From positions 1-24,067 of the forward strand of contig JAYWIA010001507.1 in the NCBI GenBank assembly GCA_043789255.1: a DNA stretch of 24,067 nt. Reading direction: 5' to 3'. Positions 6,046-17,671 of this stretch are shown here, in pieces. Origin of the DNA: Myxococcales bacterium (lineage in GTDB: Bacteria; Myxococcota_A; Polyangia; Polyangiales; Polyangiaceae). The translations under genes and the position numbers were made by a program. Below the pieces are notes generated by a model, which was not told the origin of the DNA, made no database searches, and saw only the letters and a program-made list of their open reading frames with translations. How positions within the stretch are numbered: position 1 is the stretch's first letter; each line of letters opens with the position of its first letter.

Positions 6046-6441
6046 TCACTTGTCCTTTCCGCCGCTTTTCGCGGTGGTTTTGGCCGAATCCGTGGGCGCG
6101 GCTTCCGGGATTGCTTGTGCGTCTGCCGTCGGCGTAGGCGACGTGTCGGGCGCGGCCGCGGGCGACGGTGCCGCCTTGGGCAACGCCGACGCGTTGAACT
6201 TCACGCCGAGGATCTTGGCCGTGGCTTCGTCTGCCGGGGCCATTTCGCCGAGGCGCACGTGCTTCCGGTATTCGGCTCGGTCTCGAACATCGAAGGCCTC
6301 GTTTGTCGGGGTGAACGCGTGCCGACCGTTCGGGAGAGCCGCAAGGGTGACCCCGAGTTTTCGGTTCACGCCTTCTTCGAGCGCGTCGTAGTCGTCGACC
6401 AGGCACGTGCTGACGAGCACGAGTCGCAAAATATCGCCCAT
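6046..6441 (-). CDS. Hypothetical pre-sheath protein (131 aa), possibly Mu gp38/DUF2635-like
   Basis: ATG 6441 with SD AAGGAG; MGDILRLVLV...EYRKHVRLGEMAPADEATA plus Ala/Pro tail; occupies the position of DUF2635 in Mu-type tails. The longer ORF-track start is overlapping and unlikely. Confidence 0.6.
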   Translation of the reverse strand: MGDILRLVLVSTCLVDDYDALEEGVNRKLGVTLAALPNGRHAFTPTNEAFDVRDRAEYRKHVRLGEMAPADEATAKILGVKFNASALPKAAPSPAAAPDTSPTPTADAQAIPEAAPTDSAKTTAKSGGKDK

Positions 6442-6452
6442 GGAAGGCTCCT

Positions 6453-7190
6453 TCAGGTGTCGGTTTGGGCGACCACGACGGCGTCGAGGTCGGTATCTGT
6501 CGCGGCGTCGTGCACGCCGACCTCGAGGGTGATCCCCTCGAGCGCGGTCAAAGCCGTCTCGTCCGTGTTGCCGACCTCGCGGAGCTCGAACTCGATCGCA
6601 ATGGCTGGCATGTGCAGCTCGGTCGAAAAGTTCGCGACGTTCCCGAAGGTCGTCGTGCGGGGGAACACGAAGTCCACGCCCATCTTTTCGTGCAGGTCCT
6701 CGCCGAGCGTTCCACCAGGGGGCGTGTATTCGCCGTGCTGAAGGCTGCGCATGTAGCCGGTGACCACGACCTCGGCGGTGCGGAGGATCGGAGCGATGCT
6801 CTCGATCTGCGCCGCCGTCATAGGCGGGAGCACGTAGAGCAGATCGCACATGGTGCTCTCCCCATGACGTGAGCCCGTGCGCTCCGAGTGCGTCCCCTTC
6901 TTCCGGTGGATCGCGAGCATCGGAAAGCGCACTTGCTCCGAGGAGAGGTGCGGGAGCGGGTCACGCGAGAGCTTTGTGGCTACCGCGCCGTTGATGTTGA
7001 TCGAGGACGCCGGCAAGAGCGCCAGTTGCATGAGCAGGCGCGTTTGAAAGCTTCGGGCGAGGCCCCACGCGAGGAAGTCCAGGAGGTAGAAGATCGCGGG
7101 GTCCGCGTCCCGAAGGAGCGTGTAGGTCGTGGCTGTCGGGACGACCGTGGGCGACCCACCGATCGCAAAGGCATCGAGCACTTCAGCCAT
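6453..7190 (-). CDS. Putative tail terminator/completion protein (245 aa)
   Basis: Position between the gp10-like gene and the sheath; C-terminal MPAIAIEFELRE beta strand. Assignment is by synteny. Confidence 0.55.
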   Translation of the reverse strand: MAEVLDAFAIGGSPTVVPTATTYTLLRDADPAIFYLLDFLAWGLARSFQTRLLMQLALLPASSININGAVATKLSRDPLPHLSSEQVRFPMLAIHRKKGTHSERTGSRHGESTMCDLLYVLPPMTAAQIESIAPILRTAEVVVTGYMRSLQHGEYTPPGGTLGEDLHEKMGVDFVFPRTTTFGNVANFSTELHMPAIAIEFELREVGNTDETALTALEGITLEVGVHDAATDTDLDAVVVAQTDT

Positions 7191-7199
7191 GGAGCGACC

Positions 7200-7610
7200 T
7201 CAGAAGCGGAAAGCGGACTGCTCGGCGAACGACTCGAAGGCCACTTCCGCAACGTCCATTGCCGGGCCCACGAATGGGTGCGGCCTCGTGCCGGGGTGGT
7301 GCACGCGCTTGGCGAAGACCATCGAACGTCCGACCTTGAAGGCCAGCGCGCGGGCCGAGTTCGCTTCGATGACGTGGGCAACCGTGCCCTCTTCGACGAA
7401 GACCGAAGCCTTGTGTGCGGATACGAGCGCGAACCCGTCCGTGATGCCCTCGGTCGTGAGAAGCTTCTTTATGCCGCCAGGGGCGCGGCGCTTGGCTTCG
7501 GCGAGGACGGCCTTCGCGGTCTTGTTGATGACCTGGCGCACCATGGCCGGAAAAGAGTTCGCGGCTTTGGCGTAGAACGCGGCAAGCTCGCGAGCTTCCA
7601 GAACCATCAT
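7200..7610 (-). CDS. HK97 gp10-like neck/tail-completion protein (136 aa)
   Basis: ATGA overlap with upstream stop; motifs ASVFVEEGT...HVI...ALAF...FAKRVHHPGTRPHPFVGPA match this family. Confidence 0.8.
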   Translation of the reverse strand: MMVLEARELAAFYAKAANSFPAMVRQVINKTAKAVLAEAKRRAPGGIKKLLTTEGITDGFALVSAHKASVFVEEGTVAHVIEANSARALAFKVGRSMVFAKRVHHPGTRPHPFVGPAMDVAEVAFESFAEQSAFRF

Positions 7611-8077
7611 GCGTCTTGGCCCAGTCTTTCGAGGAAGAAGAACCACTTGAACGGCGAGAAGCCCTCGCCGTCGACGCGTTTGCAGAGCACGCCATCCGTC
7701 GCGAGGCCGGGGCCCGTGACGATGAAGTGCACCTCGCGCCCGGGCTCCACAACGGGGTCAATGACGTCCGCCTGTGTCCCGCCGGCGCCGTAGTCTGGGG
7801 TGAGCGGTCCGACCTTGTAGCGGGTTGCGGCGATGGTTCCGCCCGATGCGACGACGTCCTTCGACTTCACTTCGACCACCTTCGGGCGAAGGCCGCCGCC
7901 GACCGTGATCGCCGTGGTCTCGTCCGTGGCCGTGCCCTGTCCGACGAAGCCGCCGGACCATGTGCGCGTACGCACGAAGACCTCGAAGGGACGTAGGCCG
8001 AAGCTGTCGAGAATCCCGCGGGCATCGTCCAAGACGGGAAGGAGGGACTGCACGAGGGTGCCCGTTCGGACGGTCAT
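7607..8077 (-). CDS. Putative head-closure (stopper) protein (156 aa)
   Basis: TGATG overlap with upstream gene; beta-rich; position between adaptor and gp10-like gene. Confidence 0.6.
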   Translation of the reverse strand: MTVRTGTLVQSLLPVLDDARGILDSFGLRPFEVFVRTRTWSGGFVGQGTATDETTAITVGGGLRPKVVEVKSKDVVASGGTIAATRYKVGPLTPDYGAGGTQADVIDPVVEPGREVHFIVTGPGLATDGVLCKRVDGEGFSPFKWFFFLERLGQDA

Positions 8078-8682
8078 CAGTAGACCTCGAGACTCGAGCC
8101 GCGACGACTGGCCATGAGGTTGGGACTCACGCGGACCAGCTCGGAGATTTGCTCCATGATCTTCGCGTACTGAAAAAGCACGTCATTGATGACGCCGCGC
8201 CCGCCGGCGAGCCATTCGATTTCACCCTGGCCGAGCTGCTTGAGGCCCGCGGTTTGGGTGATTGAAGATCCGAAGGCCTTGGAAAAGGCACGGTTGGCTT
8301 CGCCGAGCAGGAAGCGCAGGCGCGCCTTGCCGCTCATGACGAGGACGGGATACCCGAGAAGGTCGTGGGCCTTCGCAAAGCGCGCCACGAATGACCCACC
8401 GTTTACGGCTTTCACCTCAACGATTTCCGCGTCTTCGCCGATGTCCACCACGAGGGTTGCGGCCACCACGATGTTCGTCATGACGAGCGGGGTGCACGAG
8501 GCAATCCCGGCCGCGATTGGGGAAACGCTGGTGGTTTCGGTGTCCGTCGAGAGGTTCGGAGCGATGACCTGGTCGAAGAGCGAATAGAAGCCGTCGCTCG
8601 TGTAAGGCGAGGCCCCGACGCCGATGTTGCCGTGACGGAGGTGCGCGCGGAGATTCTCGATCTCGCTCTTGGTAAGGGACAT
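8077..8682 (-). CDS. Putative head-tail adaptor/connector (201 aa)
   Basis: ATG 8682 with SD GGAGG 9 nt upstream (preferred over GTG 8760); first neck gene after the head module. Assignment is by synteny. Confidence 0.55.
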   Translation of the reverse strand: MSLTKSEIENLRAHLRHGNIGVGASPYTSDGFYSLFDQVIAPNLSTDTETTSVSPIAAGIASCTPLVMTNIVVAATLVVDIGEDAEIVEVKAVNGGSFVARFAKAHDLLGYPVLVMSGKARLRFLLGEANRAFSKAFGSSITQTAGLKQLGQGEIEWLAGGRGVINDVLFQYAKIMEQISELVRVSPNLMASRRGSSLEVY

Positions 8683-8959
8683 GCGCGCCTGCCTCCGGTG
8701 AAAGTTGCCGGCTCCTTGGAGCTCCGCCGGCGAGAGCGCGGTATACGGTGACCCGCTCACCCGACGCTCGACCCAGTGACCGCTTTGGGGGCTTCGGGTG
8801 GTCCCAAGATTTGCCGTTGCGACCCTTCCGGACGGCTACGGCGGCACATTCACGGGATGGTCTCCCGTGGCCTTCGCCTTTTCGGCGACGTGCTTCGGAC
8901 ATTGGGAACGCGCTTCGGCGTTTGGCGCGTGCGCGGCGCGCCACCGAAGCGTCTCCCAG
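8683..8959 (-). ncRNA. Candidate structured non-coding RNA immediately 3' of tRNA-Met
   Basis: About 280 nt with no credible ORF and about eight helices, e.g. TGGCGCG/CGCGCCA + CGCTTCGG/CCGAAGCG + TGGGA/TCCCA (8903-8958), TCGCC/GGCGA (8874-8888), CACGGGA/TCCCGTG (8851-8869), GCCGT/ACGGC (8813-8836). Confidence 0.4.
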
Positions 8960-9031
8960 TAGCAGGGGGTGGGATTGAACCACCGGCCTCTTGGTTATGA
9001 GCCAAGCGAGCTACCACTGCTCTACCCTGCT
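8960..9031 (-). tRNA. tRNA-Met(CAT), initiator-like; CCA not encoded
   Basis: Full cloverleaf: acceptor AGCAGGG/CCCTGCT + A73; D stem GAGC/GCTC; anticodon arm CTTGG-CTCATAA-CCAAG (CAT at 8999-8997); T arm GGTGG-TTCAATC-CCACC. Confidence 0.93.
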
Positions 9032-9120
9032 AGGTGCCGCCCGAGGGGGCGGGCGGCGAGGAGAGTTTTACGTGGTCCCCACCACGGCCCTTTGCTCGGA
9101 TGCGACGCCGAGCGGGCGAG

Positions 9121-9498
9121 TTACTGCGCGCCGCGGCGCGCGTATCGTGCGGTGAGAGCAAGCGAGGAGCTTGCCACCGTGCCCGACCCTTGGGCGGTCA
9201 TGCGGAACCACTTCCAGCCCGCGGGAACCGGCATGCGCCACGCTCGAGTGTCGGACGCGGTGAGCGTTACGGTCTCGAGAGCCGGCGTTGCGATCTGGTA
9301 GTAGGTGATGCCGTCCATCGAGACATACGGCACCAGTGTCACGTTCGTGAGCGAACCGAGCGTGAAGTCGACCTGAATGTTTAGGTAGGAGCCCGAGTTC
9401 AGGTTGTTGAGGTCCACGCGGGCGGACGCGACCGCCCCCGTGGTGAGGATGGCCGCAGAGCGAATCACTTGCGACTTGTTGAGAGCAGAGCTTCCCAT
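9121..9498 (-). CDS. Putative capsid decoration/cement protein (125 aa)
   Basis: Beta-strand-rich small ORF directly after the major capsid gene, with SD AGGAAAGG. Confidence 0.55.
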   Translation of the reverse strand: MGSSALNKSQVIRSAAILTTGAVASARVDLNNLNSGSYLNIQVDFTLGSLTNVTLVPYVSMDGITYYQIATPALETVTLTASDTRAWRMPVPAGWKWFRMTAQGSGTVASSSLALTARYARRGAQ

Positions 9499-9526
9499 TT
9501 TTGTGTCCTTTCCTGGTCAGCTAGGC

Positions 9527-10672
9527 TCAGGTGGACTGAGCTAGGATGCGCTGAATGAAGCGCGAATCCAGGGTTTCAAAGCCTTGGACCGAGCGCCAAA
9601 TGACCTTGGCGGTCTCGCCGAAGTCGGTGTCGTCCGAGAAGCGAACCTCGGGGGGTGCGCCGGTCGCGCAGCCAACGCCTTCGGGTCCGAAGAGGAGGGC
9701 TTCCTCCACGTTCACGCCCGTGCCGACCGTCGAACCGTCGTTCGGGACAACGTTCGTCGGCACGTACTGCTTCAAGGTCGTGACCTCGAAAAAGTCGATG
9801 TCTTGGCACGATGCGATCTGCCCGTAGAGCATGTTTACGCCGTTGCCAGGGCCGGCGTTGCGCGAGAGGTTCGCCCAATCCGGGTCCTGCGCCATTTGGA
9901 TGTTGAAGGCCGAGGGGACCGTGCACACGTATCGACCGTTGGGGAACGGCTTCACGTTGCGGTCCTTGAGGCTCTTCTTCGCTCGGAGGATCTGCTCGAG
10001 CGCGAAGTACGCCGTGCCGCCGACAACGAAGTCGGAAGCCAGGGTGACGCCGTCCGGGTACGTGATGTTGCCCGTCGACCGGAAAAGGTCGCGAACCACG
10101 TACTCCATGAGGTTGACGTAGTCGTACTGAAGATTTTGGGTGACCTGGCTCGCGAGCGAGATCGGGGATTTCTTGAACTGCGCATCGAAGGCCGCGATGC
10201 CGTAGGGCTCCACGCGGTTGTTCGTCGTCGAAAACGGACCTTGAAGGAGCCGAAGCACGATCGAGGCCTCGGCCGACGAGATGCTCTGCCCGGTCGTGGA
10301 GGTCGGCTTGTCCGGGGTCTTCGTGCGTTGGTCGAGGGTGTAGCCACCACCAGAGAAGACCGGGCGGGTCATCTTGACGGTCGCGCCCTCTTTCGCCCCC
10401 ACGTCATCGATCGTGAGGATCATGTCCGGGAAGGTGTCGGCGAAGCGGATCAGCCGGTCCAGTTGTGGAGAGATGTCCTTCCCCACGCCGGCCATGCTCA
10501 CGTACTGCTGTACGGTTTGCGCGCCAGCATCGATGCGCATCATGTTGAGGCGCCCCGACATGAGCGCCTGCGCAAAGAAGTATTGCGGCTGAGGCTCCAT
10601 GAGCCGGAGGCCGGAGTTTACGGCTGTGACGAACGAGCCGGGTGCGGTGGCGGAATTGACAGAGTTGCCCAT
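9527..10672 (-). CDS. Major capsid protein (381 aa, resembles N4 gp56-like family)
   Basis: Follows scaffold; LKDRNVKPF..GRYVCTVP and C-terminal FSDDTDFGETAKVIWRSVQGFETLDSRFIQRI resemble this capsid family. Confidence 0.8.
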   Translation of the reverse strand: MGNSVNSATAPGSFVTAVNSGLRLMEPQPQYFFAQALMSGRLNMMRIDAGAQTVQQYVSMAGVGKDISPQLDRLIRFADTFPDMILTIDDVGAKEGATVKMTRPVFSGGGYTLDQRTKTPDKPTSTTGQSISSAEASIVLRLLQGPFSTTNNRVEPYGIAAFDAQFKKSPISLASQVTQNLQYDYVNLMEYVVRDLFRSTGNITYPDGVTLASDFVVGGTAYFALEQILRAKKSLKDRNVKPFPNGRYVCTVPSAFNIQMAQDPDWANLSRNAGPGNGVNMLYGQIASCQDIDFFEVTTLKQYVPTNVVPNDGSTVGTGVNVEEALLFGPEGVGCATGAPPEVRFSDDTDFGETAKVIWRSVQGFETLDSRFIQRILAQST

Positions 10673-10711
10673 TGAATGCTCCTTAAAATCTCCGCCCGCT
10701 TACGGCGTCGA

Positions 10712-11368
10712 CTACTGATTTGCCGGCATCGCGGCGTGGATAGCCGCGGCGTTGGCGTTGAAGAAAATGGCAGCGAGACCGGCGTTCTTCGCTTCGAGCG
10801 CCTTGTACTGGTCCCACATCGTTGGTGCCCCCGTGCTCGGTGGAGCGGGCGGCGCGTTGCTGCTGTTCGCCGGTGGCGGCTTCAGCGCGGGTGTGGCGGC
10901 AGGTGCCGAGGAGGGGCCTAGGACGCGCATGAAAGCGTCGCGCTTCTCGGCGTCGTCTCCGGCCTCTTCGGTGATGCGAGCTTGGACGTCGGCCGGGAGC
11001 GCGGCGAAGCGCGCCGCGACATCCTTCTCGAAGCGCACCTTGTACTTCTTGAGTTCGGGCTCGAGGGGTTCGAGTTCCTTGATGCGCTTCGCCGCCTTTT
11101 CGTCGGCGGTGAGCTTCGCGTCGGCGGCCTCTTTCGCGGCCTTCTGGGCGTTCGCGAACGAGGCTTCATCCTCAAAGCCGTTCGTCTTGAGGAACGCACG
11201 ACGCTCCTTCGCGCGCTCCTCTTTGAGGCGCTCCGCGAAAGCGGCGGACGACATCGAAACGGTGACTTCCGTGGGCGTAGCGGGAGGGGTTCCCGTAGCC
11301 GGTGGCGTCACTGGGGGCGTGACTGGGGGCGTGGTGGAATCGGTGGGCGGAACGATCGGGTCGGTCAT
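10712..11368 (-). CDS. Capsid scaffolding protein (218 aa)
   Basis: Pro/Thr-rich N-terminus, charged coiled-coil core, Pro-rich linker and short C-terminal helix, immediately upstream of the capsid gene. Confidence 0.75.
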   Translation of the reverse strand: MTDPIVPPTDSTTPPVTPPVTPPATGTPPATPTEVTVSMSSAAFAERLKEERAKERRAFLKTNGFEDEASFANAQKAAKEAADAKLTADEKAAKRIKELEPLEPELKKYKVRFEKDVAARFAALPADVQARITEEAGDDAEKRDAFMRVLGPSSAPAATPALKPPPANSSNAPPAPPSTGAPTMWDQYKALEAKNAGLAAIFFNANAAAIHAAMPANQ

Positions 11369-11441
11369 GTGGGGTCGGGCTCCTACTCGCGATATCGCCC
11401 GCGAGAGCGTTGGAGGTGCCGGGTGGCCGCCCGGCGCGGGG

Positions 11442-11486
11442 TCAGCAGGGGCGAGGTTTGCCCTTGCCCTTTTTCTTCTTCGTCAT
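11442..11486 (-). CDS. Candidate 14-aa polybasic micro-protein MTKKKKGKGKPRPC
   Basis: ATG 2 nt after the upstream stop; SD GGAGG (11498-11494) 7 nt upstream; TGA at 11444-11442. Confidence 0.5.
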   Translation of the reverse strand: MTKKKKGKGKPRPC

Positions 11487-11488
11487 GC

Positions 11489-11902
11489 TCAGGCCTCCGT
11501 GAAGCCGACGAGAATTCCGATGGGTGTGGACAGCACCGGAACCGCCGTCGCATCGGTAAACTCAGTGGCCACGTCGATGGTCTTGGCGACAGACGACAGC
11601 GTCAGCTCGCACGTGATGTTTGCAGCCGCGATGGCCAGGGTCTTCAGAGCAAGGAAGACGTCCGGATCGGATGCGCGGCGGCCTGGCTGCCAAAGGGCCA
11701 GCGTGCCGGGCACCATGGTGACGGTCTTGCCGTTTCGGCGGCCGTTCTGAATTAGCGCCGGTACGTTGACAATGCGAAGGTTGTCAGCCTGCGCGTAGGT
11801 TCCGGAAGGGCTGAAGAAGAGAACCGCGTATTGCAGCGGGTCGTTTTCGTTGGCCTTCAGGATCATGAAGGTGTCGAGGCTGGTGATGTCTACGATCGCC
11901 AT
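11489..11902 (-). CDS. Hypothetical protein (137 aa), possibly a virion component
   Basis: Plausible beta-rich ORF within the head module; no recognised motif. Confidence 0.65.
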   Translation of the reverse strand: MAIVDITSLDTFMILKANENDPLQYAVLFFSPSGTYAQADNLRIVNVPALIQNGRRNGKTVTMVPGTLALWQPGRRASDPDVFLALKTLAIAAANITCELTLSSVAKTIDVATEFTDATAVPVLSTPIGILVGFTEA

Positions 11903-11970
11903 GGGTGAGTCTCTTTCGTCGTTGGGGGCGCCCCGTTGGGACGCCTGTTGTCGTGAGCGCGGCTATGGCC

Positions 11971-12288
11971 TCAGGCGAGGCCGTCCGCACCCTCGTCGGC
12001 GCCCTCTGCGCCCGGGGTCTCCGGGGCCGCGGGTTCACTGCCGGCGGGTTCGCCCGCGCCAGACTTGGCCGCCCGAGCCTGCGCTCGGCGTTGGGCCTTT
12101 GTGAGCTTTTCGGGCGAATCCCCCGCGGTGGGCTCGCCTGCTCCCTCTCCCTCGTCGGCGCCCTCTGCGCCCGGGGTCGCCAAAGGATGCCCTTCGGGGG
12201 AGCATGCGCGACAGGTCATTCCTGACTTCACCGCTTCCAGCGGAGGCGCGATCTGCGTGGAGCACGTCGAACAAAAATAGGCGGGCAT
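11971..12288 (-). CDS. Zinc-ribbon protein with low-complexity tail (105 aa)
   Basis: CSTC...CRAC motif followed by an Ala/Gly/Glu/Pro-rich tail. Confidence 0.6.
   Translation of the reverse strand: MPAYFCSTCSTQIAPPLEAVKSGMTCRACSPEGHPLATPGAEGADEGEGAGEPTAGDSPEKLTKAQRRAQARAAKSGAGEPAGSEPAAPETPGAEGADEGADGLA
11990..12178. repeat. 30-bp perfect direct repeat (11990-12019 and 12149-12178) encoding TPGAEGADEG twice
   Basis: CCCTCGTCGGCGCCCTCTGCGCCCGGGGTC read at both positions. Confidence 0.9.
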
Positions 12289-12301
12289 GTCGGATCCTTG
12301 G

Positions 12302-14044
12302 TCAGCCCTTCAAGGGCGGTTTCGGAGGAGTCTGTTTTGCCGGGTTTGGCGGAGTGCCAGGTACCGGCGGCCCGCTGGCCTGCATCGCCTTCACGGCGAG
12401 GGCGGCTGCTTCGTCCTTTTCGGACTTGGCATTGTCGTGTTCGTCGTCCGAGTTCTCGACGCCGAAGGACTTGGCCACGTGCTCGGTAGCCGTCTTGCTA
12501 GCGATGAGTCCGCCGTCCTTGGCGTCCAGCGCGGTCGTGGTCTCGGCCTGCTTTTCCGAGGCGCTTGGCGTGAAATACGGGCCCCAAGCAAGGGTGACCT
12601 TCGGGAGGCGCCACGAAGTTCCCTCGGTCGTTTCGACCTCGAAGCGTTTGGCGAGCTTGGCGAGCGTAGGTCCCCGTCGGAGGTGCATCCCATCCGCACC
12701 GCGATCGGCGAGCATCCGAAGGAACATCGCGAGGACCGCCTTGAGAGCCGGCTCCCAAGTGGCGAGGCGCATGCGGTCGGAAAGCGCGATCATGCGCGCG
12801 TAGATCATGCGTAGGAGCGAAACGGTTAGCTCCCCGCCGCCGAGGATTTCCTTGGGGGAAAGCAGCGTCACGCCCATCATTTCGAGGGCGCGGGCGCGGA
12901 TGTCGTCCACGTGGAGTGTAGCGACCTCGAAGGCGCGCCCAGTCGTTTCGAGCAGGCCAAGCCTTACGGCAGGGTCCTCGTATGACCAGATCTCGCCGGG
13001 GCCCGATTTGCGCGCCTGGTCGGCCACGTGGCCATGTGGTGCCGAGTGTTCCGTTCGTGCACTCGCTCCGCGGCCATGGGCTCCGGGGCCGTCGTCGTCG
13101 CCAACACCTGTTTCCCAGGTTTGGGGGGTGCCGAAGTGGTGGATTCCACGGTGCCGCTGCGAAAGGGCTAGGTTGAGCGCGTCCGACTCGTCAAGAAGCC
13201 CGTCGTAGAGCGAGCGTCCGTCGAGGTCGGCATGGGACCGCGGCATGTTCCGGACCCACACGACAGGACAGAAGGAAAAGCCGTGCTGTTCGCGCGATTT
13301 CTCAATCCACTTGGGTGCGTCCGAACGCGTGTCTTCGTCGGCAAGCGGCTCGTAATGAATGACCTCGGTGGCGGTGTAGTCGCGTCGGAACCAAGCGACA
13401 TCGTATTTCACGAGGCCAGCCTCGACCCGCATTCGCTCGAACCGGTAGCACCACGTCATCCCCTCGACGGGGCGCGCTGGATCGTCCTTGGTAAACTTCG
13501 GCCAACAGTCGCGAGCGTGAGGAAGCTCGAGGGAGAACATCCCGTCTCGGATCGACCCGATCGCCACACCAGTGCGGGCGGCCACGGCTCTCTGTGCAAG
13601 CTCGTAGAATGCGCATCGAAGCTGGGATTCTTCTACGATCTCATCCAACGAGTCTTTGAGGAGTTCCGCGTCAGCCTCGGAAATGGCGAGCTGAGAGACG
13701 TCGTCGTCGGCCTCCGCCTCTTCGACCTTGATTTGCGGCCAGCGTTCGCCGCCGAGCATGAAATCCAGAAGCTCGCCCACGGCCGTAGCCGCGAGTCCGT
13801 ACGTGATGCACGGGGCCCGCTCCCGGAGCGGAACAACCTCGCCGTTGCCCTTCCGTCCCGTGAAGAAGTCGGGAAGGCCCTTGTACTGGTCGCCGTCGAA
13901 GTAGGCTTGAAGGCGCTGAAGCTCCTTGTACCGCTTCAAACTCGGTAGGAGGTGCGGGGGAACCGAAGGCTCCACACGTGCAGATGTCTCGACGCCCGCG
14001 GCGGATTCGGTGCTTACGGTCCCGAAGGCTCGTTGGGAATGCAT
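12302..14044 (-). CDS. Portal protein (580 aa, SPP1 gp6-like)
   Basis: Directly after TerL; FCPVVWVRN, LDGRSLYDGLLDESDALNLALSQ and VTLAWGPYF segments are typical of portals. Confidence 0.85.
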   Translation of the reverse strand: MHSQRAFGTVSTESAAGVETSARVEPSVPPHLLPSLKRYKELQRLQAYFDGDQYKGLPDFFTGRKGNGEVVPLRERAPCITYGLAATAVGELLDFMLGGERWPQIKVEEAEADDDVSQLAISEADAELLKDSLDEIVEESQLRCAFYELAQRAVAARTGVAIGSIRDGMFSLELPHARDCWPKFTKDDPARPVEGMTWCYRFERMRVEAGLVKYDVAWFRRDYTATEVIHYEPLADEDTRSDAPKWIEKSREQHGFSFCPVVWVRNMPRSHADLDGRSLYDGLLDESDALNLALSQRHRGIHHFGTPQTWETGVGDDDGPGAHGRGASARTEHSAPHGHVADQARKSGPGEIWSYEDPAVRLGLLETTGRAFEVATLHVDDIRARALEMMGVTLLSPKEILGGGELTVSLLRMIYARMIALSDRMRLATWEPALKAVLAMFLRMLADRGADGMHLRRGPTLAKLAKRFEVETTEGTSWRLPKVTLAWGPYFTPSASEKQAETTTALDAKDGGLIASKTATEHVAKSFGVENSDDEHDNAKSEKDEAAALAVKAMQASGPPVPGTPPNPAKQTPPKPPLKG

Positions 14045-14050
14045 GTCGAC

Positions 14051-15478
14051 CTACTCCGCGGTGGCGCGTTCGTCGTGAGTGATGCCCTTCCGAGCGCCGA
14101 AGCGGTCGGGGAAGCGGTGCACGAGGCCATACCGAAGGGAGTCGAGAGCGTGGTTGTTCGCGTCCTCGATGGCTTCGAGGGTGGCCTCGGGATTCTTTGG
14201 GTCGCGCTTCCGTCGGTAGAGCCCGAACTCGTCAATCGTGTTCTTGCAGCGAGGGTGGACGAAGAGGTGGGAAAACTCTTCGCGACGCTCGACACCATCC
14301 TCGCCACGCACGCGGCGAGAGCGGACGGAAAGCCAACGCTGAAGAACGGTGACGCCGTTCTCGACGCTACCGGCCCCCTTCAAGACCTTTTGGATGTTCG
14401 CGCCGAGCTTGCGCCATCCGGCTAGGACGGAAGGGTTCGCCGGGTCGGGGTACCACTTCGCGCGAGGGTAGTGCCCAACCAGCCGAGTGACCTGTTCGTC
14501 CCACCATACGGGGTCGCGTTCGGTCTCGTAAACCTCGTCAAGAACCCACGCGATCGCGTCCTTGCCGCGGCCAAGGATGCCAACGGTGAGGATGCAGCCA
14601 GGGTCAGAAAACCCGTGGTCCGCGCAGTAGATAATTTCCTCCCACATGGTCCCTGGCGGGGGGACGCGGACGTGGAAGCCCTCGAGAAACATCGGATACA
14701 CGAGGCCTTCGCTCGCATCGAAGTCGCAGAGGTATTCGCGCTTGAAGATCGCGGGCGGAGTGTCGCTTTTGACGTCGTCCAGGTAGGACGGGTCAACGAT
14801 TTCCGGAGCGTCGTAGGCTGTCGCGTGGAAGCTCTTGAAGCGGAAGTGCTTCTTTTCGCGCGCGATCTGCGGCCATTCGTGGTGAGCCTCCCAGAGGAAG
14901 CCCTTGCGGCCGCGCCGCGGCGTCCCGCTCACCACCAGCATGCGGAGCGAGTGCGGTTGCGTGAACCAGGGCTTTACGATCGCGGAGATCATGCCCGAAT
15001 CGAGGTCGTCGGCCTCGTCGCAGCAAACGACGTCGCAGCGGATGCCGCGCGCCAGAAACGCGCGTTGCGAGCTGACGAACTGGACCCAAGAGCCGCCCGG
15101 GAACGAGATGCGCCAGGTGGTGCGGTTGACCTTGCCTCCGAGCGTGGCCCACTGGCTCTCGAGTTCGTCGAGAATCAGATCGCCGTGCACCTTCGTGGCC
15201 TGCGCCAACGTGGGCATGACGAGCACGATGCGGATGCCCGGACGGGGTGCGCCTGGACGAAGCCGGAACTCCCAGCGCTGGACGAGCGCCCACCAAAGGA
15301 GGCGCACGAACCAGCTCTTGCCGATGCCGCGGCCCCAAGGGAGGCACACGCGAAGACCGCGCATCGTGGCGCGGTCGGGGTGCATGAGGTGCGCCCATGC
15401 GAGGGATTGGGCTTTGCACTTCCGAAGGTCGACGTGTGGGTCGATCGCGATGTCTTCGACCTCGCCGAGATCGGTCAC
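14051..15478 (-). CDS. terL: Terminase large subunit (475 aa)
   Basis: Walker A GRGIGKS, Walker B VVCCDEA, coupling motif SGTP, nuclease ADHGFSDP and NHALDSLRY. Confidence 0.95.
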   Translation of the reverse strand: MTDLGEVEDIAIDPHVDLRKCKAQSLAWAHLMHPDRATMRGLRVCLPWGRGIGKSWFVRLLWWALVQRWEFRLRPGAPRPGIRIVLVMPTLAQATKVHGDLILDELESQWATLGGKVNRTTWRISFPGGSWVQFVSSQRAFLARGIRCDVVCCDEADDLDSGMISAIVKPWFTQPHSLRMLVVSGTPRRGRKGFLWEAHHEWPQIAREKKHFRFKSFHATAYDAPEIVDPSYLDDVKSDTPPAIFKREYLCDFDASEGLVYPMFLEGFHVRVPPPGTMWEEIIYCADHGFSDPGCILTVGILGRGKDAIAWVLDEVYETERDPVWWDEQVTRLVGHYPRAKWYPDPANPSVLAGWRKLGANIQKVLKGAGSVENGVTVLQRWLSVRSRRVRGEDGVERREEFSHLFVHPRCKNTIDEFGLYRRKRDPKNPEATLEAIEDANNHALDSLRYGLVHRFPDRFGARKGITHDERATAE

Positions 15479-16044
15479 GCGTCCTCGTCGCCGTCCTCGT
15501 CCTTGCGGGGGGTCTCGCTTGGGCCCTTCTCCACCGGGGTCTCTCCGTCGTCCTCGGACGGAAGAACCTGGAAGATGACTTGGAGGCCGGCTTTCTTCTC
15601 GCCGCTGTCCGCCGTGACGTCCACGAGGAGAGTTTCGCGGGAGCTTCCGAAGAATTCAGGCCATCGGCGAGAGAGCATCCACTGGGCGGTGGCTACTCGC
15701 ATTGGCGAAAGCTTGGACCGAATGGCCTTGGCCGGATCCTTCTTCGACCGCCGAAGGCCCGTGGCGGCTTCGACGATGATGTTGACGTAGAGCTCGGCGC
15801 CCATGGCCTTGGCTCGCCTACAAGCGTCTACAAAGTCCTTGTAAAGCGCGGTCGGCGGGCGGTCCTTGTCCTTGCCCTCGCCACGCCGAAGCCATCCGTG
15901 GATGGTGGAGCGGGCGACGCCGCAGGACTCGCCCGCAAGCTCCAAGGGCATGCCCTTGTGGAGTTTGGAGACGATCTGCTTTTGCAGCGCTGGCGTGAGC
16001 TTGGAGGGCCGTCCAGTGCGGTCGGCTGTCTTTGGGTTGGTCAC
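15475..16044 (-). CDS. terS: Terminase small subunit (189 aa)
   Basis: GTG 16044; GRPSKLTPALQKQIV plus HTH (LAGESCGVARSTIHGWLRRG), AQWMLSRRWPEFFG; GTGA overlap with TerL. Confidence 0.85.
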   Translation of the reverse strand: MTNPKTADRTGRPSKLTPALQKQIVSKLHKGMPLELAGESCGVARSTIHGWLRRGEGKDKDRPPTALYKDFVDACRRAKAMGAELYVNIIVEAATGLRRSKKDPAKAIRSKLSPMRVATAQWMLSRRWPEFFGSSRETLLVDVTADSGEKKAGLQVIFQVLPSEDDGETPVEKGPSETPRKDEDGDEDA

Positions 16045-16130
16045 GGCGGGCCCTTCTACGTGCCGGTACGCTGGCACGAAGCGAGGAAGGGGCCCCCTTT
16101 CGGGGGCTTTGGGTGGCGTCGTATCGAGGG

Positions 16131-16225
16131 AGCACCGGGCGGGAGTCGAACCCGCGTGTGGAAGCCCTCCTTCGGTTTGCATCCGCTTTCCAGGGCGGCG
16201 CCTTTCCGATTGGCTACTTCGGTGC
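16131..16225 (-). tRNA. Atypical tRNA-Ser(GGA)-like RNA (95 nt, long variable region), possibly pseudo-tRNA
   Basis: GCACCG/CGGTGC acceptor with AA bulge, TAGCC-AATCGGAAA-GGC D arm, CCGC-CCTGGAAA-GCGG anticodon arm, 27-nt variable region, GCGGG-TTCGACT-CCCGC T arm, U73. Confidence 0.7.
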
Positions 16226-16255
16226 AGACACCATCTTGCGATGGCGGGGAAGTTT

Positions 16256-16582
16256 CTACGGAGTGTGGGGCGAGACGCGCTGGTCGACGGGCGGAGGCTG
16301 AATCCACTGGCCGTTTCCGTCGCCCTGCGACACGGAGCCGACCCAGTTGGGGTCCCAGGTGAGCAGCTCGGCAGGCGCGTCGCCGGGCGACTCTTCGGCC
16401 GGCGGGAGCGCGACACCGTGGATGTCGTTCGGCCCGTCGTAGAACACGTGCATATTGCACGTGACAGCGGGGTCGGTGACCTTGCCGTTGACGTTCGTGA
16501 TGAGGGCCGCGCGGTACTCGCCGCCGCGCGGATGCGTGTCGGGAAGGCGGTAGTGAACGATGCGTCCGATGCTGGGAATCAT
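16256..16582 (-). CDS. Phage hypothetical protein (108 aa)
   Basis: PSIGRIVHY...RAALITNV...NMHVF pattern that I recognise as recurrent in phage hypotheticals; function unknown. Confidence 0.75.
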   Translation of the reverse strand: MIPSIGRIVHYRLPDTHPRGGEYRAALITNVNGKVTDPAVTCNMHVFYDGPNDIHGVALPPAEESPGDAPAELLTWDPNWVGSVSQGDGNGQWIQPPPVDQRVSPHTP

Positions 16583-16609
16583 GGGCTGACTTTCGGTAGG
16601 GCGGCGAGG

Positions 16610-17671
16610 TTATGCTTGCTCAGTGGCGGGGAAGGTCGTTCCAAGCTTTTCGGCGAGGACGCGGCAGTCCACGAAGCCGTGCTTCGCGAGGAGGATGCGG
16701 GCGAGGTGGTCGCGCTCCTCAGAGGTGCCGCACACAACCGTGAGCGCGAACTGCGACACATCGAGGGTGAGCGAGTCGTTCGCCAACTCGGCGTTCATCT
16801 TGGCGCGGGCGGCTTTGGAGGCGTCGTACTTGACCAGCTCTTCCGGGGACATGATGCGACCGGCGGCGTTCCGGCGGGGCTCTTCCGCGGGTTCGTCGTC
16901 TTCGCCACGCGAGTACTCGGACGACGCGTCTCCAGAGTCCTCGCGCGACGGGCTTCCGTCTCGAGCTGCTCCGAGCGACGGGTCTTCGGCGGCCGGGGGA
17001 TCGAAGGGGGTCGAGGGTGCAGGGGCGGGCTTCCGAGCGATTTCGTTGATGGCGTTGGCCGAAGCCGCCACCTCGGCGGGCTCTTCCGCAGGAAAGAGAC
17101 GGTCGAAGTCGTCAGCCGGGAGGACCATTTCGAGGTCCATGACGTCGAGAGCGACGTCTTCGGGCCGGATGCCATAGTCGAACATGTCGACCATAAGCTC
17201 AGGCACGAACTCGCCTCGAAGAGCCTCGTTGTTGAGGATGATGTTCAGCTCGCGCTCGCGCTTTTCCGTCACGTCTACGACGTTGACGTCGAGTTCGTAG
17301 TCGCCGGCTTTTTCCTTCTCGAGGATGTCGAGCTGCGTAAGGCGCTGGTGACCACCCACGAGGTTCCCCGTGCGGACGTTCCAGGTAAGGGCTTCGACAA
17401 GGCCCTTTTTCTCAAGTATTTCCCGCAACTTTCTCGCGTTCAGCTCATTGATGGCTCGCGGGTTGTAGGGGGCGTTCTTCAGCTCGGAGCGGTGCACGCG
17501 GCGGGGTCGGAACTTTTGGAAGCGGGAGAGCTTCGAATCGTCCCCGGTTAGCGGCGTGTGGGTCGGGTCGGACACGTTGGGAGCTGCTTTGGGTGACGGG
17601 TCAACCGGCTTCTTCTTGGCCTTCTTCGCCCGCGGGGTCTCCGGGACGGTCTCGGCGGGTTTTGGTGCCAT
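16610..17671 (-). CDS. ParB/Srx N-terminal-domain protein (353 aa)
   Basis: LKNAPYNPRAI...GLVEALTWNVRTGNLVGGHQRL...ERELNIILNN are ParB-N signatures; acidic Pro-rich linker follows. Confidence 0.9.
   Translation of the reverse strand: MAPKPAETVPETPRAKKAKKKPVDPSPKAAPNVSDPTHTPLTGDDSKLSRFQKFRPRRVHRSELKNAPYNPRAINELNARKLREILEKKGLVEALTWNVRTGNLVGGHQRLTQLDILEKEKAGDYELDVNVVDVTEKRERELNIILNNEALRGEFVPELMVDMFDYGIRPEDVALDVMDLEMVLPADDFDRLFPAEEPAEVAASANAINEIARKPAPAPSTPFDPPAAEDPSLGAARDGSPSREDSGDASSEYSRGEDDEPAEEPRRNAAGRIMSPEELVKYDASKAARAKMNAELANDSLTLDVSQFALTVVCGTSEERDHLARILLAKHGFVDCRVLAEKLGTTFPATEQA

What the first reader, a model, noticed from the sequence alone, without database searches (positions are those of the whole stretch)
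16131..16225. Non-canonical tRNA: Ser anticodon in an 8-nt loop, bulged acceptor stem, U73 and a second Cys-like loop
Seen: the D and T arms are canonical. The acceptor has a 2-nt AA bulge before G7, the anticodon arm is 4 bp with an 8-nt loop CCUGGAAA (one nt short overall), and the end is G1:C72 with U73. The 27-nt variable region starts with CGG-ATGCAAA-CCG, which mimics a Cys(GCA) anticodon loop. Established: SerRS recognises the long variable arm rather than the anticodon; G1:C72/U73 is a Cys-type end; 8-nt loops characterise +1 frameshift suppressors; non-canonical cloverleaves (allo-tRNA, selC*) exist. Inference: it could be a functional odd tRNA, a decoy for anticodon nucleases or synthetases, a processing signal, a decaying gene, or contain a homopolymer sequencing error.
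Basis: partly seen in the sequence, partly recalled or inferred. Interest (0 to 1): 0.65.

Follow-up and report, generated by a model that had tools for sequence, protein, structure and literature searches.

The report
Misshapen one-off tRNA-like gene in phage
A phage contig carries, just upstream of its DNA-packaging genes, a real but badly deformed tRNA-derived gene that mixes cysteine-tRNA and serine-tRNA features, occurs in no related phage, and is most likely a decaying or chimeric relic rather than a working adaptor.

Summary
On the minus strand of 16131-16225 lies a 95-nt tRNA homologue with an AA bulge in the acceptor stem, a 4-bp anticodon stem with the 8-nt loop CCUGGAAA, a 27-nt variable region, U73, and a second hairpin with a Cys-type loop. 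It is not chance: Rfam tRNA gives 28.5 bits against a threshold of 29, E 0.0025 genome-wide. It is not an assembly error either, since four assemblies carry the identical sequence. It scores far below the same genome's real tRNA-Ser genes (53-61 bits) and the phage's own tRNA-Met (69.9 bits).

New here:
- The scaffold is tRNA-Cys-like; only the first hairpin is Ser(GGA)-like.
- The two anticodon-like hairpins share the bases CGG, so they exclude each other.
- Predicted folds are ambiguous and none is a normal cloverleaf.
- The element and the orphan ORF beside it are missing from the closest relatives. No other copy turned up in IMG/VR, in GTDB representative genomes or in about 200 genomes of the host family.
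- The large late genes show no frame breaks, so four-base decoding is not needed.

Verdict: most likely a lineage-specific, degenerate or chimeric tRNA relic (about 0.5). A non-decoding tRNA-shaped RNA, such as a processing site or decoy, comes second (about 0.25). Interest is low to moderate.

The parts
16131..16225 (-). The 95-nt tRNA-like element. The 5' end G1 is at 16225 and the discriminator U is at 16131.
   Evidence: Rfam RF00005 gives 28.5 bits, E 6e-4 locally and 0.0025 genome-wide. ARAGORN calls it only at relaxed thresholds. The sequence is identical in L024, L025 and the Logan contig of X1.
16217..16225 (-). Acceptor 5' strand: GCACCG (16225-16220), unpaired AA (16219-16218) and G (16217). 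It pairs with 16132-16138.
   Evidence: The six outer pairs have probability 0.84-1.0; the seventh pair, beyond the AA bulge, has 0.002. The Rfam alignment shows the 2-nt gap.
16200..16214 (-). D arm: GCC(A)-AUCGGAA-(A)GGC, of tRNA-Cys type with an A13/A22 mismatch.
   Evidence: Alignment to family tRNA-Cys genes. Pairing probability is 0.003 in the ensemble.
16183..16198 (-). Ser(GGA)-type hairpin: CCGC / CCUGGAAA / GCGG. GGA lies at 16191-16189.
   Evidence: Pair probabilities are at least 0.99. It resembles the anticodon arm of the one tRNA-Ser(GGA) in L018, but not the usual family stem.
16173..16185 (-). Cys(GCA)-type hairpin: CGG / AUGCAAA / CCG. GCA lies at 16180-16178. Its 5' strand overlaps the previous hairpin's 3' strand.
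   Evidence: It matches CGG-U-UUGCAAA-A-CCG of family tRNA-Cys genes. Its probability in the global ensemble is 0.002, but it is part of the best fold of the central domain taken alone.
16164..16196 (-). Alternative long central arm: GCCCU (16196-16192) pairs with AGGGC (16168-16164), enclosing the Cys-type hairpin.
   Evidence: The cloverleaf with this arm is -34.4 kcal/mol against -32.5 for the Ser-type cloverleaf. The central domain (element nt 27-70) alone folds this way at -11.7.
16156..16160 (-). CACAC, identical to the class-I variable loop of family tRNA-Cys genes, directly before the T stem.
16139..16155 (-). T arm: GCGGG-UUCGACU-CCCGC.
   Evidence: Pair probabilities are at least 0.99. 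It fits the consensus T loop.
16128..16130 (-). Trailer CCC. Family tRNA-Cys genes encode CC or CCA here.
16231..16244 (-). Small hairpin CCAUC-GCAA-GAUGG, 5 nt upstream of G1. It lies 12 nt after the stop codon of the orphan ORF (16258-16256).
   Evidence: Read directly.
16256..16582 (-). Orphan 108-aa ORF immediately upstream. It is lineage-specific, like the element.
   Evidence: It has only itself as a homologue among 5.8 billion proteins. There is a weak PHROG hit of unknown function.
16092..16107 (-). GC hairpin GCCCCC-GAAA-GGGGGC downstream of the element, with no U tract after it.
   Evidence: The terminator scan does not call it. The relative L027 has a different hairpin at the same place.
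16045..16091 (-). Conserved leader of terS, which includes the hairpin CGUGCC/GGCACG. It is not part of the tRNA-like element but marks the 3' border of the lineage-specific insert.
   Evidence: It is nearly identical in the 71%-TerL relative L027/L028, with one compensatory pair change.
15475..16044 (-). terS (189 aa), followed by terL (14051-15478) and portal (12302-14044).
   Evidence: PHROG small-terminase hits at 3e-12, Terminase_3C, and portal hits.

Best explanation
The element is a lineage-specific, structurally degraded and probably chimeric tRNA gene in the variable slot between the DNA-modification genes and terS of an uncultured siphovirus-like phage. Its scaffold derives from a tRNA-Cys-type gene: acceptor end with U73, D arm, GCA loop, CACAC and T arm. 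Two mutually complementary insertions flank the old anticodon hairpin. The 5' insertion creates a Ser(GGA)-like hairpin with a 4-bp stem and an 8-nt loop, and two extra A residues break the acceptor/D junction. Because no reading gives a standard L-shaped adaptor, the RNA most likely no longer decodes. It is probably transcribed passively with the operon that runs into terS. At most its intact acceptor/T-arm minihelix is still cut by RNase P or RNase Z.

Shown: the sequence, its reproducibility, the sub-threshold score, the mosaic similarity, the ambiguous folds, the absence from relatives, and the absence of frame breaks. Inferred: loss of decoding function, co-transcription, and any processing.
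For: - Score: 28.5 bits, against 53-61 for the four tRNA-Ser genes of the same assembly and 69.9 for the phage's own tRNA-Met. Default ARAGORN misses it.
- Independent lesions: the AA bulge; a missing base and unpaired C in the anticodon stem; U15 where the family tRNA-Cys has G15; and 9-nt and 5-nt linkers around a 4-bp variable stem with probability at most 0.03.
- Folding: the global MFE (-37.9) is a rod that destroys the D arm. With the D arm kept, the long arm carrying the Cys loop (-34.4) beats the Ser cloverleaf (-32.5).
- Distribution: the closest relative (TerL 71% identical, L027/L028) keeps the terS leader but has unrelated sequence in place of the element. Four further relatives (TerL 53-57%) have no tRNA-like hit.
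- No other copy by pattern search in GTDB genomes or IMG/VR, by BLAST in 201 family genomes, or by covariance model in 151.
- The neighbouring ORF is an orphan, so the pair looks like a recent insertion.
- Mosaic origin.
Against: Phage genomes are compact and tend to lose useless DNA. Here the acceptor (6 bp), the T arm and both anticodon-like loops (each with U33 and A37) are intact and the gene is full length. The complementary insertions could reflect selection for a long arm. The phage uses UCC+UCU for 38% of Ser codons against 26% in the MAG, which would fit a working tRNA-Ser(GGA). Only near-identical copies exist, so there is no test of constraint. No expression data exist; no RNA run was listed.
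Confidence: 0.5

Rival explanations
1. It is a functional, non-decoding tRNA-shaped RNA. The acceptor/T-arm module recruits RNase P, RNase Z or the CCA enzyme and so punctuates the transcript just before the terS leader. Alternatively, the exposed Ser(GGA) and Cys(GCA) loops act as decoys for host anticodon nucleases or other tRNA-binding factors.
For: - The acceptor and T helices have probability at least 0.99 while the middle is remodelled into a long arm.
- It sits between an operon-internal ORF and a conserved structured terS leader, and no sigma-70-like promoter of its own was found.
- Phages are known to make tRNA-region RNAs of unknown role, such as T4 RNAC and RNAD (PMC3014915).
- Phage tRNAs are proposed to counter anticodon nucleases, and tRNA-Ser(GGA) is a VapC target cut at GA (PMC10264068).
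- An earlier scan note (e1-3448236) describes a phage family of anticodon-less tRNA-shaped RNAs.
Against: No homologue exists anywhere, so nothing shows selection. Relatives manage with the same terS leader and without the element. The AA bulge interrupts the acceptor/T stack that RNase P reads. There are no RNA data. No sequence look-alike was found among earlier scan findings.
Confidence: 0.25
2. It is a working, if odd, tRNA-Ser(GGA). It would be charged by SerRS through its long variable region and would read UCC and UCU by triplet pairing with an 8-nt loop, as yeast mitochondrial tRNA-Thr(UAG) does. Or it would read a four-base codon.
For: The loop carries U-GGA-AA in the right order. The phage is 1.4-fold richer in UCC+UCU than the MAG. 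Natural tRNAs with 8-nt loops exist and decode triplets (PMC7609411; PMC5009743).
Against: - Discriminator is U73, not G73, and the second acceptor pair is C2:G71.
- The variable stem is 4 bp, offset by a 9-nt linker, with probability at most 0.03.
- The acceptor/D junction has two extra bases.
- The score is 25-30 bits below real tRNA-Ser genes.
- For four-base reading, a 2+4+2 loop would have C33, and TerL, portal, the capsid-sized ORF, the 505-aa ORF and the tape measure are unbroken.
Confidence: 0.12
3. It is an attachment-site remnant, that is, a tRNA fragment left by or used for site-specific integration.
For: Partial, low-scoring tRNA genes often mark integration sites (PMC9897764). The best non-self BLAST hit extends past the tRNA 3' end into the trailer of an odd tRNA in a family genome.
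Against: The element is full length from the 5' acceptor strand to the discriminator, not a 3' fragment. The precomputed Pfam lists for the 30.5-kb contig show no integrase family. The MAG holds no second copy or matching tRNA. It lies inside the late operon next to terS.
Confidence: 0.03
4. It is a sequencing or assembly artefact: one base lost in the anticodon stem and two gained in the acceptor stem.
For: The deviations are small indels next to short C, G and A runs.
Against: The same 95 nt occur in the MAG contig, in two MEGAHIT assemblies (one from a strain with 5 SNPs elsewhere) and in Logan contigs at about 11x. Three separate indels plus the long insert cannot all be errors.
Confidence: 0.03

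Closest known systems
Bacterial tRNA-Cys(GCA), as found in the MAG's family (for example L044 1501-1572)
   Same: UA at positions 8-9; D arm GCC(A)...(A)GGC with a 7-nt loop containing GG; CGG-x-UGCAAA-CCG; CACAC before the T stem; T arm; U73; CC trailer. Family tRNA-Cys genes are the best non-self hits of the element's covariance model in most genomes that had a hit.
   Different: About 13 nt are inserted before the anticodon hairpin and about 12 nt after it. Only 3 of the 5 anticodon-stem pairs are kept. Two extra A residues sit in the acceptor strand, position 15 is U, and the acceptor stem sequence is unrelated.
Bacterial class II tRNA-Ser(GGA)
   Same: Loop CUGGAAA on a GC-rich stem, a long region between the anticodon and T arms, and a T arm 16/17 identical to the family tRNA-Ser(GGA).
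   Different: 4-bp stem with an 8-nt loop; no proper variable-arm helix next to the anticodon stem; U73 instead of G73; a different acceptor stem and D loop. The usual family anticodon stem (GCAYGA) is not the one seen here.
Phage-encoded aberrant tRNAs and tRNA-region stable RNAs (T4 RNAC/RNAD; phage tRNAs with enlarged anticodon loops cited in PMC5009743)
   Same: A phage gene with a tRNA-derived shape, non-standard loop or arm sizes and unknown function (PMC3014915; PMC5009743).
   Different: No sequence relation is shown. Those RNAs are known to be expressed and recur in related phages; this one is a single-lineage element with no expression data.
Yeast mitochondrial tRNA-Thr(UAG), which has an 8-nt anticodon loop
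   Same: A natural 8-nt anticodon loop that does not imply frameshifting (PMC7609411).
   Different: That tRNA is otherwise a normal cloverleaf with a dedicated synthetase. Here several other domains are also damaged.
allo-tRNA and selC* tRNA-Cys (Mukai et al., PMC5389517)
   Same: Non-canonical tRNAs that combine a long variable arm or Cys-type identity with unusual stems.
   Different: Those have a 12-bp acceptor/T branch arranged 8/4 or 9/3. Here the T stem is 5 bp and the acceptor is 6 bp plus one pair across a bulge.

Membership tests
Canonical tRNA (Rfam RF00005 / ARAGORN) | Score at or above the curated gathering threshold, and called by a standard tRNA finder | tested here: not met
   28.5 bits against a threshold of 29. 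ARAGORN at default settings gives no call.
Canonical tRNA (Rfam RF00005 / ARAGORN) | 7-bp acceptor stem, 2-nt linker, and a 5-bp anticodon stem with a 7-nt loop | tested here: not met
   The acceptor has 6 bp, an AA bulge and 1 more pair. The anticodon stem is 4 bp with an 8-nt loop.
Canonical tRNA (Rfam RF00005 / ARAGORN) | T arm with the UUCRANY loop, and GG in the D loop | tested here: met
   GCGGG-UUCGACU-CCCGC, with GG in the D loop.
Class II tRNA-Ser | Variable-arm helix that begins 1-2 nt after the anticodon stem (the SerRS determinant) | tested here: not met
   The best variable stem is 4 bp and comes after a 9-nt linker; its pair probability is at most 0.03.
Class II tRNA-Ser | G73 discriminator and the conserved family acceptor stem GGAGAGG | tested here: not met
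   U73, with acceptor GCACCG. All 22 distinct family tRNA-Ser(GGA) sequences have GGAGAGG.
Class II tRNA-Ser | Charged by SerRS | not testable with these tools
   Needs an aminoacylation assay.
tRNA-Cys | U73, GCA in a 7-nt loop with U33 and A37, and the A13/A22 D-stem mismatch | tested here: met
   Read from the sequence and from the alignment to 11 family tRNA-Cys genes.
tRNA-Cys | 5-bp anticodon stem at the normal distance from the D and T arms; class I variable loop directly after the stem | tested here: not met
   Only 3 bp remain, and insertions of 13 nt and 12 nt separate the hairpin from the D arm and from CACAC.
allo-tRNA / selC* tRNA-Cys | 12-bp acceptor/T branch arranged 8/4 or 9/3 (PMC5389517) | tested here: not met
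   The T stem is 5 bp with probability at least 0.99. Extending the acceptor to 8 or 9 pairs gives A:C and G:G mismatches.
+1 frameshift-suppressor or four-base-decoding tRNA | Enlarged loop with the extra base in or 3' of the anticodon, and U33 kept | tested here: not met
   The extra base is the unpaired C on the 5' side of the loop. A 2+4+2 reading puts C at position 33.
+1 frameshift-suppressor or four-base-decoding tRNA | Phage genes with frame breaks that the tRNA would repair | tested here: not met
   TerL, portal, the 381-aa, 505-aa and 770-aa late ORFs are continuous. TerL aligns over 92-97% of its length to homologues.
tRNA gene fragment at an integration site | Partial tRNA (usually the 3' part) next to an integrase, with a matching host tRNA | tested here: not met
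   The element is full length. The precomputed Pfam lists for the 30.5-kb contig show no integrase family. Only a self hit was found in the MAG.
Y RNA-like (YrlA) / tmRNA | Significant match to the Rfam model | tested here: not met
   YrlA gives 13.8 bits, E 6.6. Permuted tmRNA gives 10.5 bits, covering the T arm only.
Phage tRNA-shaped stable RNA (T4 RNAC/RNAD type) | A stable processed transcript from a tRNA-like gene that recurs in related phages | tested here: inconclusive
   No RNA run was listed. The element is absent from every relative retrieved.

The most novel reading that the evidence does not exclude
The element is a selected, bistable tRNA-shaped phage RNA. It keeps a tRNA's acceptor/T module for processing and stability, but presents either a tRNA-Ser(GGA)-like or a tRNA-Cys(GCA)-like anticodon loop on an over-long arm. 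It would act as a decoy or sponge for host anticodon nucleases or other tRNA-targeting defences, or as a cleavable punctuation mark that controls expression of the packaging operon.
Probability: 0.08. Interest if true: 0.75.

Novelty: new member of a known kind. Interest (0 to 1): 0.3.

Why it matters
If it is a relic, it shows how phage tRNA genes decay or recombine. It is also a caution for annotation: relaxed tRNA finders call it Ser, 'Phe with a four-base anticodon' or 'intron-containing', and all three calls would be wrong. If instead it is a functional tRNA-shaped RNA, it would add a two-loop mimic to the small set of phage RNAs thought to interfere with tRNA-directed host defences. Nothing found here makes that reading testable without experiments.

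Tried and rejected
- Searching for homologues led nowhere. TerL-anchored loci in IMG/VR, JGI metagenomes and GTDB genomes gave only distant relatives or none. Exact and degenerate DNA patterns gave 0 hits, or only chance hits in coding sequence plus ordinary tRNA-Arg and tRNA-Asn genes. BLAST and the covariance model over the host family found only normal tRNAs.
- The idea that the element was recently captured from the host's tRNA-Ser(GGA) is rejected. The family gene is highly conserved and differs in acceptor stem, D loop, anticodon stem and variable arm. The resemblance of the stem to L018 is probably a coincidence of GC-rich stems.
- ARAGORN's 'tRNA-Ser with a 16-nt intron' is rejected. 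It is an alternative register of the same complementary insertions, and to my knowledge bacteria lack the splicing endonuclease for such introns.
- The YrlA and tmRNA readings are rejected on score.
- The mini tRNA-like piece in L015 shares the 24-nt T arm plus acceptor strand, but it is an acceptor/T minihelix with a different architecture. I did not pursue it.
- The read-level check failed: only assembler contigs were served and no RNA run was listed.

Full report
**Context.** The window is a whole 24,067-bp contig (C1507) binned into a 7.8-Mb, 65.6% GC, 71%-complete MAG. It is phage DNA. On the minus strand it encodes a PAPS-reductase-fold protein, a ParB-like protein, an orphan 108-aa ORF, the small terminase (16044-15475), the large terminase (15478-14051), the portal (14044-12302), head and tail genes, and a normal tRNA-Met at 8959-9031. 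The finding lies in the 211-nt gap between the orphan ORF and terS.

**Observation.** The Rfam tRNA model aligns it end to end at 28.5 bits against a gathering score of 29. The alignment shows two unpaired A residues in the 5' acceptor strand, the anticodon stem CCGCC/-GCGG with one base missing, the loop CUGGAAA, a long insert before the T arm, and U73. ARAGORN misses it at default settings. When relaxed, it offers two incompatible readings: an 8-nt loop with a four-base anticodon, or tRNA-Ser(gga) with a 16-nt 'intron'. Searched over the whole assembly, the hit has E 0.0025 and is the lowest full-length match. The assembly's genuine tRNA-Ser genes score 53-61 bits and the phage tRNA-Met scores 69.9. 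So this is a true tRNA homologue, but a badly fitting one.

**Not an artefact.** The same 95 nt, and the whole intergenic region, are identical in two ENA assemblies. One of them is a 30.5-kb contig that differs from the window at 5 positions in 20 kb, which makes it a second strain. A Logan contig of run X1 covers 15953-17000 at about 11x with no differences. Raw reads were not available and no RNA run was listed.

**Distribution.** The nearest relative (TerL 71% identical, L027/L028) keeps the roughly 55-nt leader before terS almost unchanged, including a hairpin with one compensatory pair change. In place of the element and the orphan ORF it carries unrelated sequence and other small genes. 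Four more relatives (TerL 53-57%) have short gaps, or a 312-nt gap without any tRNA-like hit. The orphan ORF has no homologue among 5.8 billion proteins. Pattern scans found nothing homologous in GTDB representative genomes or IMG/VR. BLAST over 201 genomes of the MAG's family and a covariance model over 151 of them also found no homologue. The MAG has no second copy. The element is therefore a single-lineage acquisition in a variable slot.

**What it is made of.** I built a covariance model from the element. It scored the element itself at 127 bits. Across the family its best other hits (34-37 bits) were 72-nt genes in most genomes that had a hit, plus one tRNA-Ser(GGA). All ten of the 72-nt genes I checked are tRNA-Cys(GCA).

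Side by side, the element shares these features with tRNA-Cys:
- UA at positions 8-9;
- the D arm with the A13/A22 mismatch and a GG loop of the same length;
- CGG-x-UGCAAA-CCG;
- CACAC directly before the T stem;
- U73 and a CC trailer.

With tRNA-Ser(GGA) it shares the CUGGAAA loop on a CCGC/GCGG stem, a CCGAA.GG stretch and the T arm. However, the family's usual tRNA-Ser(GGA) has a different anticodon stem, acceptor stem, D loop and variable arm, so this is not a recent capture of the host gene.

The simplest description is a tRNA-Cys-type scaffold with about 13 nt inserted before its anticodon hairpin and about 12 nt after it, plus two extra A residues in the acceptor strand. The two insertions are complementary to each other (GCCCU/AGGGC, or GGAA/UUCC in another register). 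The first insertion, together with the old CGG, creates the Ser-like hairpin. Because both hairpins use the same CGG, they cannot form together.

**Folding.** In the free ensemble the acceptor stem (6 bp), the T arm and the CCGC/GCGG hairpin are near-certain. The seventh acceptor pair, the D stem, the Cys hairpin and any variable stem have probabilities at or below 0.03.

| Fold | Energy (kcal/mol) | Note |
|---|---|---|
| Global minimum | -37.9 | A rod in which the D-arm 5' strand pairs with the variable region; z-score only -1.4 |
| D arm kept, long arm carrying the Cys loop | -34.4 | More stable than the Ser cloverleaf |
| D arm kept, Ser-type cloverleaf | -32.5 | |
| Central 44 nt alone | -11.7 | Folds into the long arm |

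No reading gives standard tRNA geometry.

**Function tests that were possible.**
- Four-base decoding, a lead from earlier scan notes on other phages, is not needed here. The large late genes are single open frames, and TerL aligns over nearly its full length to homologues. The extra loop base also lies 5' of the U-turn, not in or after the anticodon.
- Natural 8-nt loops are known and are not known to frameshift (PMC5009743; PMC7609411).
- Codon usage gives mild support for a past or present Ser(GGA) role: UCC+UCU make up 38% of Ser codons in the phage against 26% in the MAG.
- The integration-site reading lacks support. The element is full length, the precomputed Pfam lists for the 30.5-kb contig show no integrase family, and no host tRNA matches.
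- No sigma-70-like promoter or canonical terminator flanks the element, so it is probably co-transcribed with its neighbours. This is an inference.

**Verdict.** The most likely reading (about 0.5) is a degenerate, chimeric tRNA relic that no longer decodes. Second (about 0.25) is a non-decoding tRNA-shaped RNA used as a processing site or decoy. That idea fits the known but unexplained T4 RNAC and RNAD (PMC3014915) and the proposed arms race over tRNA cleavage (PMC10264068), but it has no direct support here. A working odd tRNA-Ser is possible but unlikely (about 0.12). Known kinds cover all of these, so the finding rates as a new member of a known kind, with low to moderate interest.

Noticed in passing
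window 16045-16091 (minus strand), compared with L027 5370-5425: The roughly 55-nt leader before terS is almost identical in a phage whose TerL is only 71% identical. Its hairpin CGUGCC/GGCACG becomes CGUGGC/GCCACG there, a compensatory change. The flanking CCCUUC can pair with GAAGGG, the likely terS ribosome-binding site. This suggests a conserved translational operator or packaging-operon control element.
   Followed up: partly
L191 (G043:C46:20000-39900), about 6245-17010: A genome of the MAG's family carries about 37 tRNA-like genes in 11 kb. Many are low-scoring or fit the tRNA-Sec model better. They are interspersed with a Ro60/Rsr orthologue (TROVE + vWA_Ro60), a YrlA-like hit right after it, and an ARPP-1 protein. 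It looks like a tRNA-array and RNA-repair island. Its odd tRNA-Arg(tct) is the best non-self BLAST hit of the element, and the similarity runs into the trailer.
   Followed up: partly
L015 4748-4835 (minus strand; IMG/VR contig of 47 kb): A mini tRNA-like piece: a 7-bp acceptor-like stem joined by a 9-nt linker to a T arm. Its 24 nt of T arm plus 3' strand are identical to the element, and it ends in CCA. ARAGORN does not call it a tRNA. It lies about 40 nt upstream of a gene start.
   Followed up: partly
G000 contigs C479, C984, C273, C41, C1462: ARAGORN calls long or odd tRNAs here (Phe-aaa of 94 nt, Gly-ccc of 91 nt, Ser-cga of 95 nt, Pyl-cta, and one undetermined). The Rfam tRNA model does not support them at E up to 1, so they are probably false positives in GC-rich DNA.
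   Followed up: partly
window 16165-16173 (minus strand; element nt 53-61): The variable region contains AAGGAGG, a perfect Shine-Dalgarno-like tract with no start codon after it. It is complementary to the CCCUUCC tract of the terS leader 70 nt downstream, so the two could compete for pairing with the terS ribosome-binding site. This is pure inference.
   Followed up: no
window 16256-16582 (minus strand): The 108-aa ORF next to the element has high third-position GC (0.85), so it looks coding. Yet it has no homologue at all apart from the same phage.
   Followed up: partly
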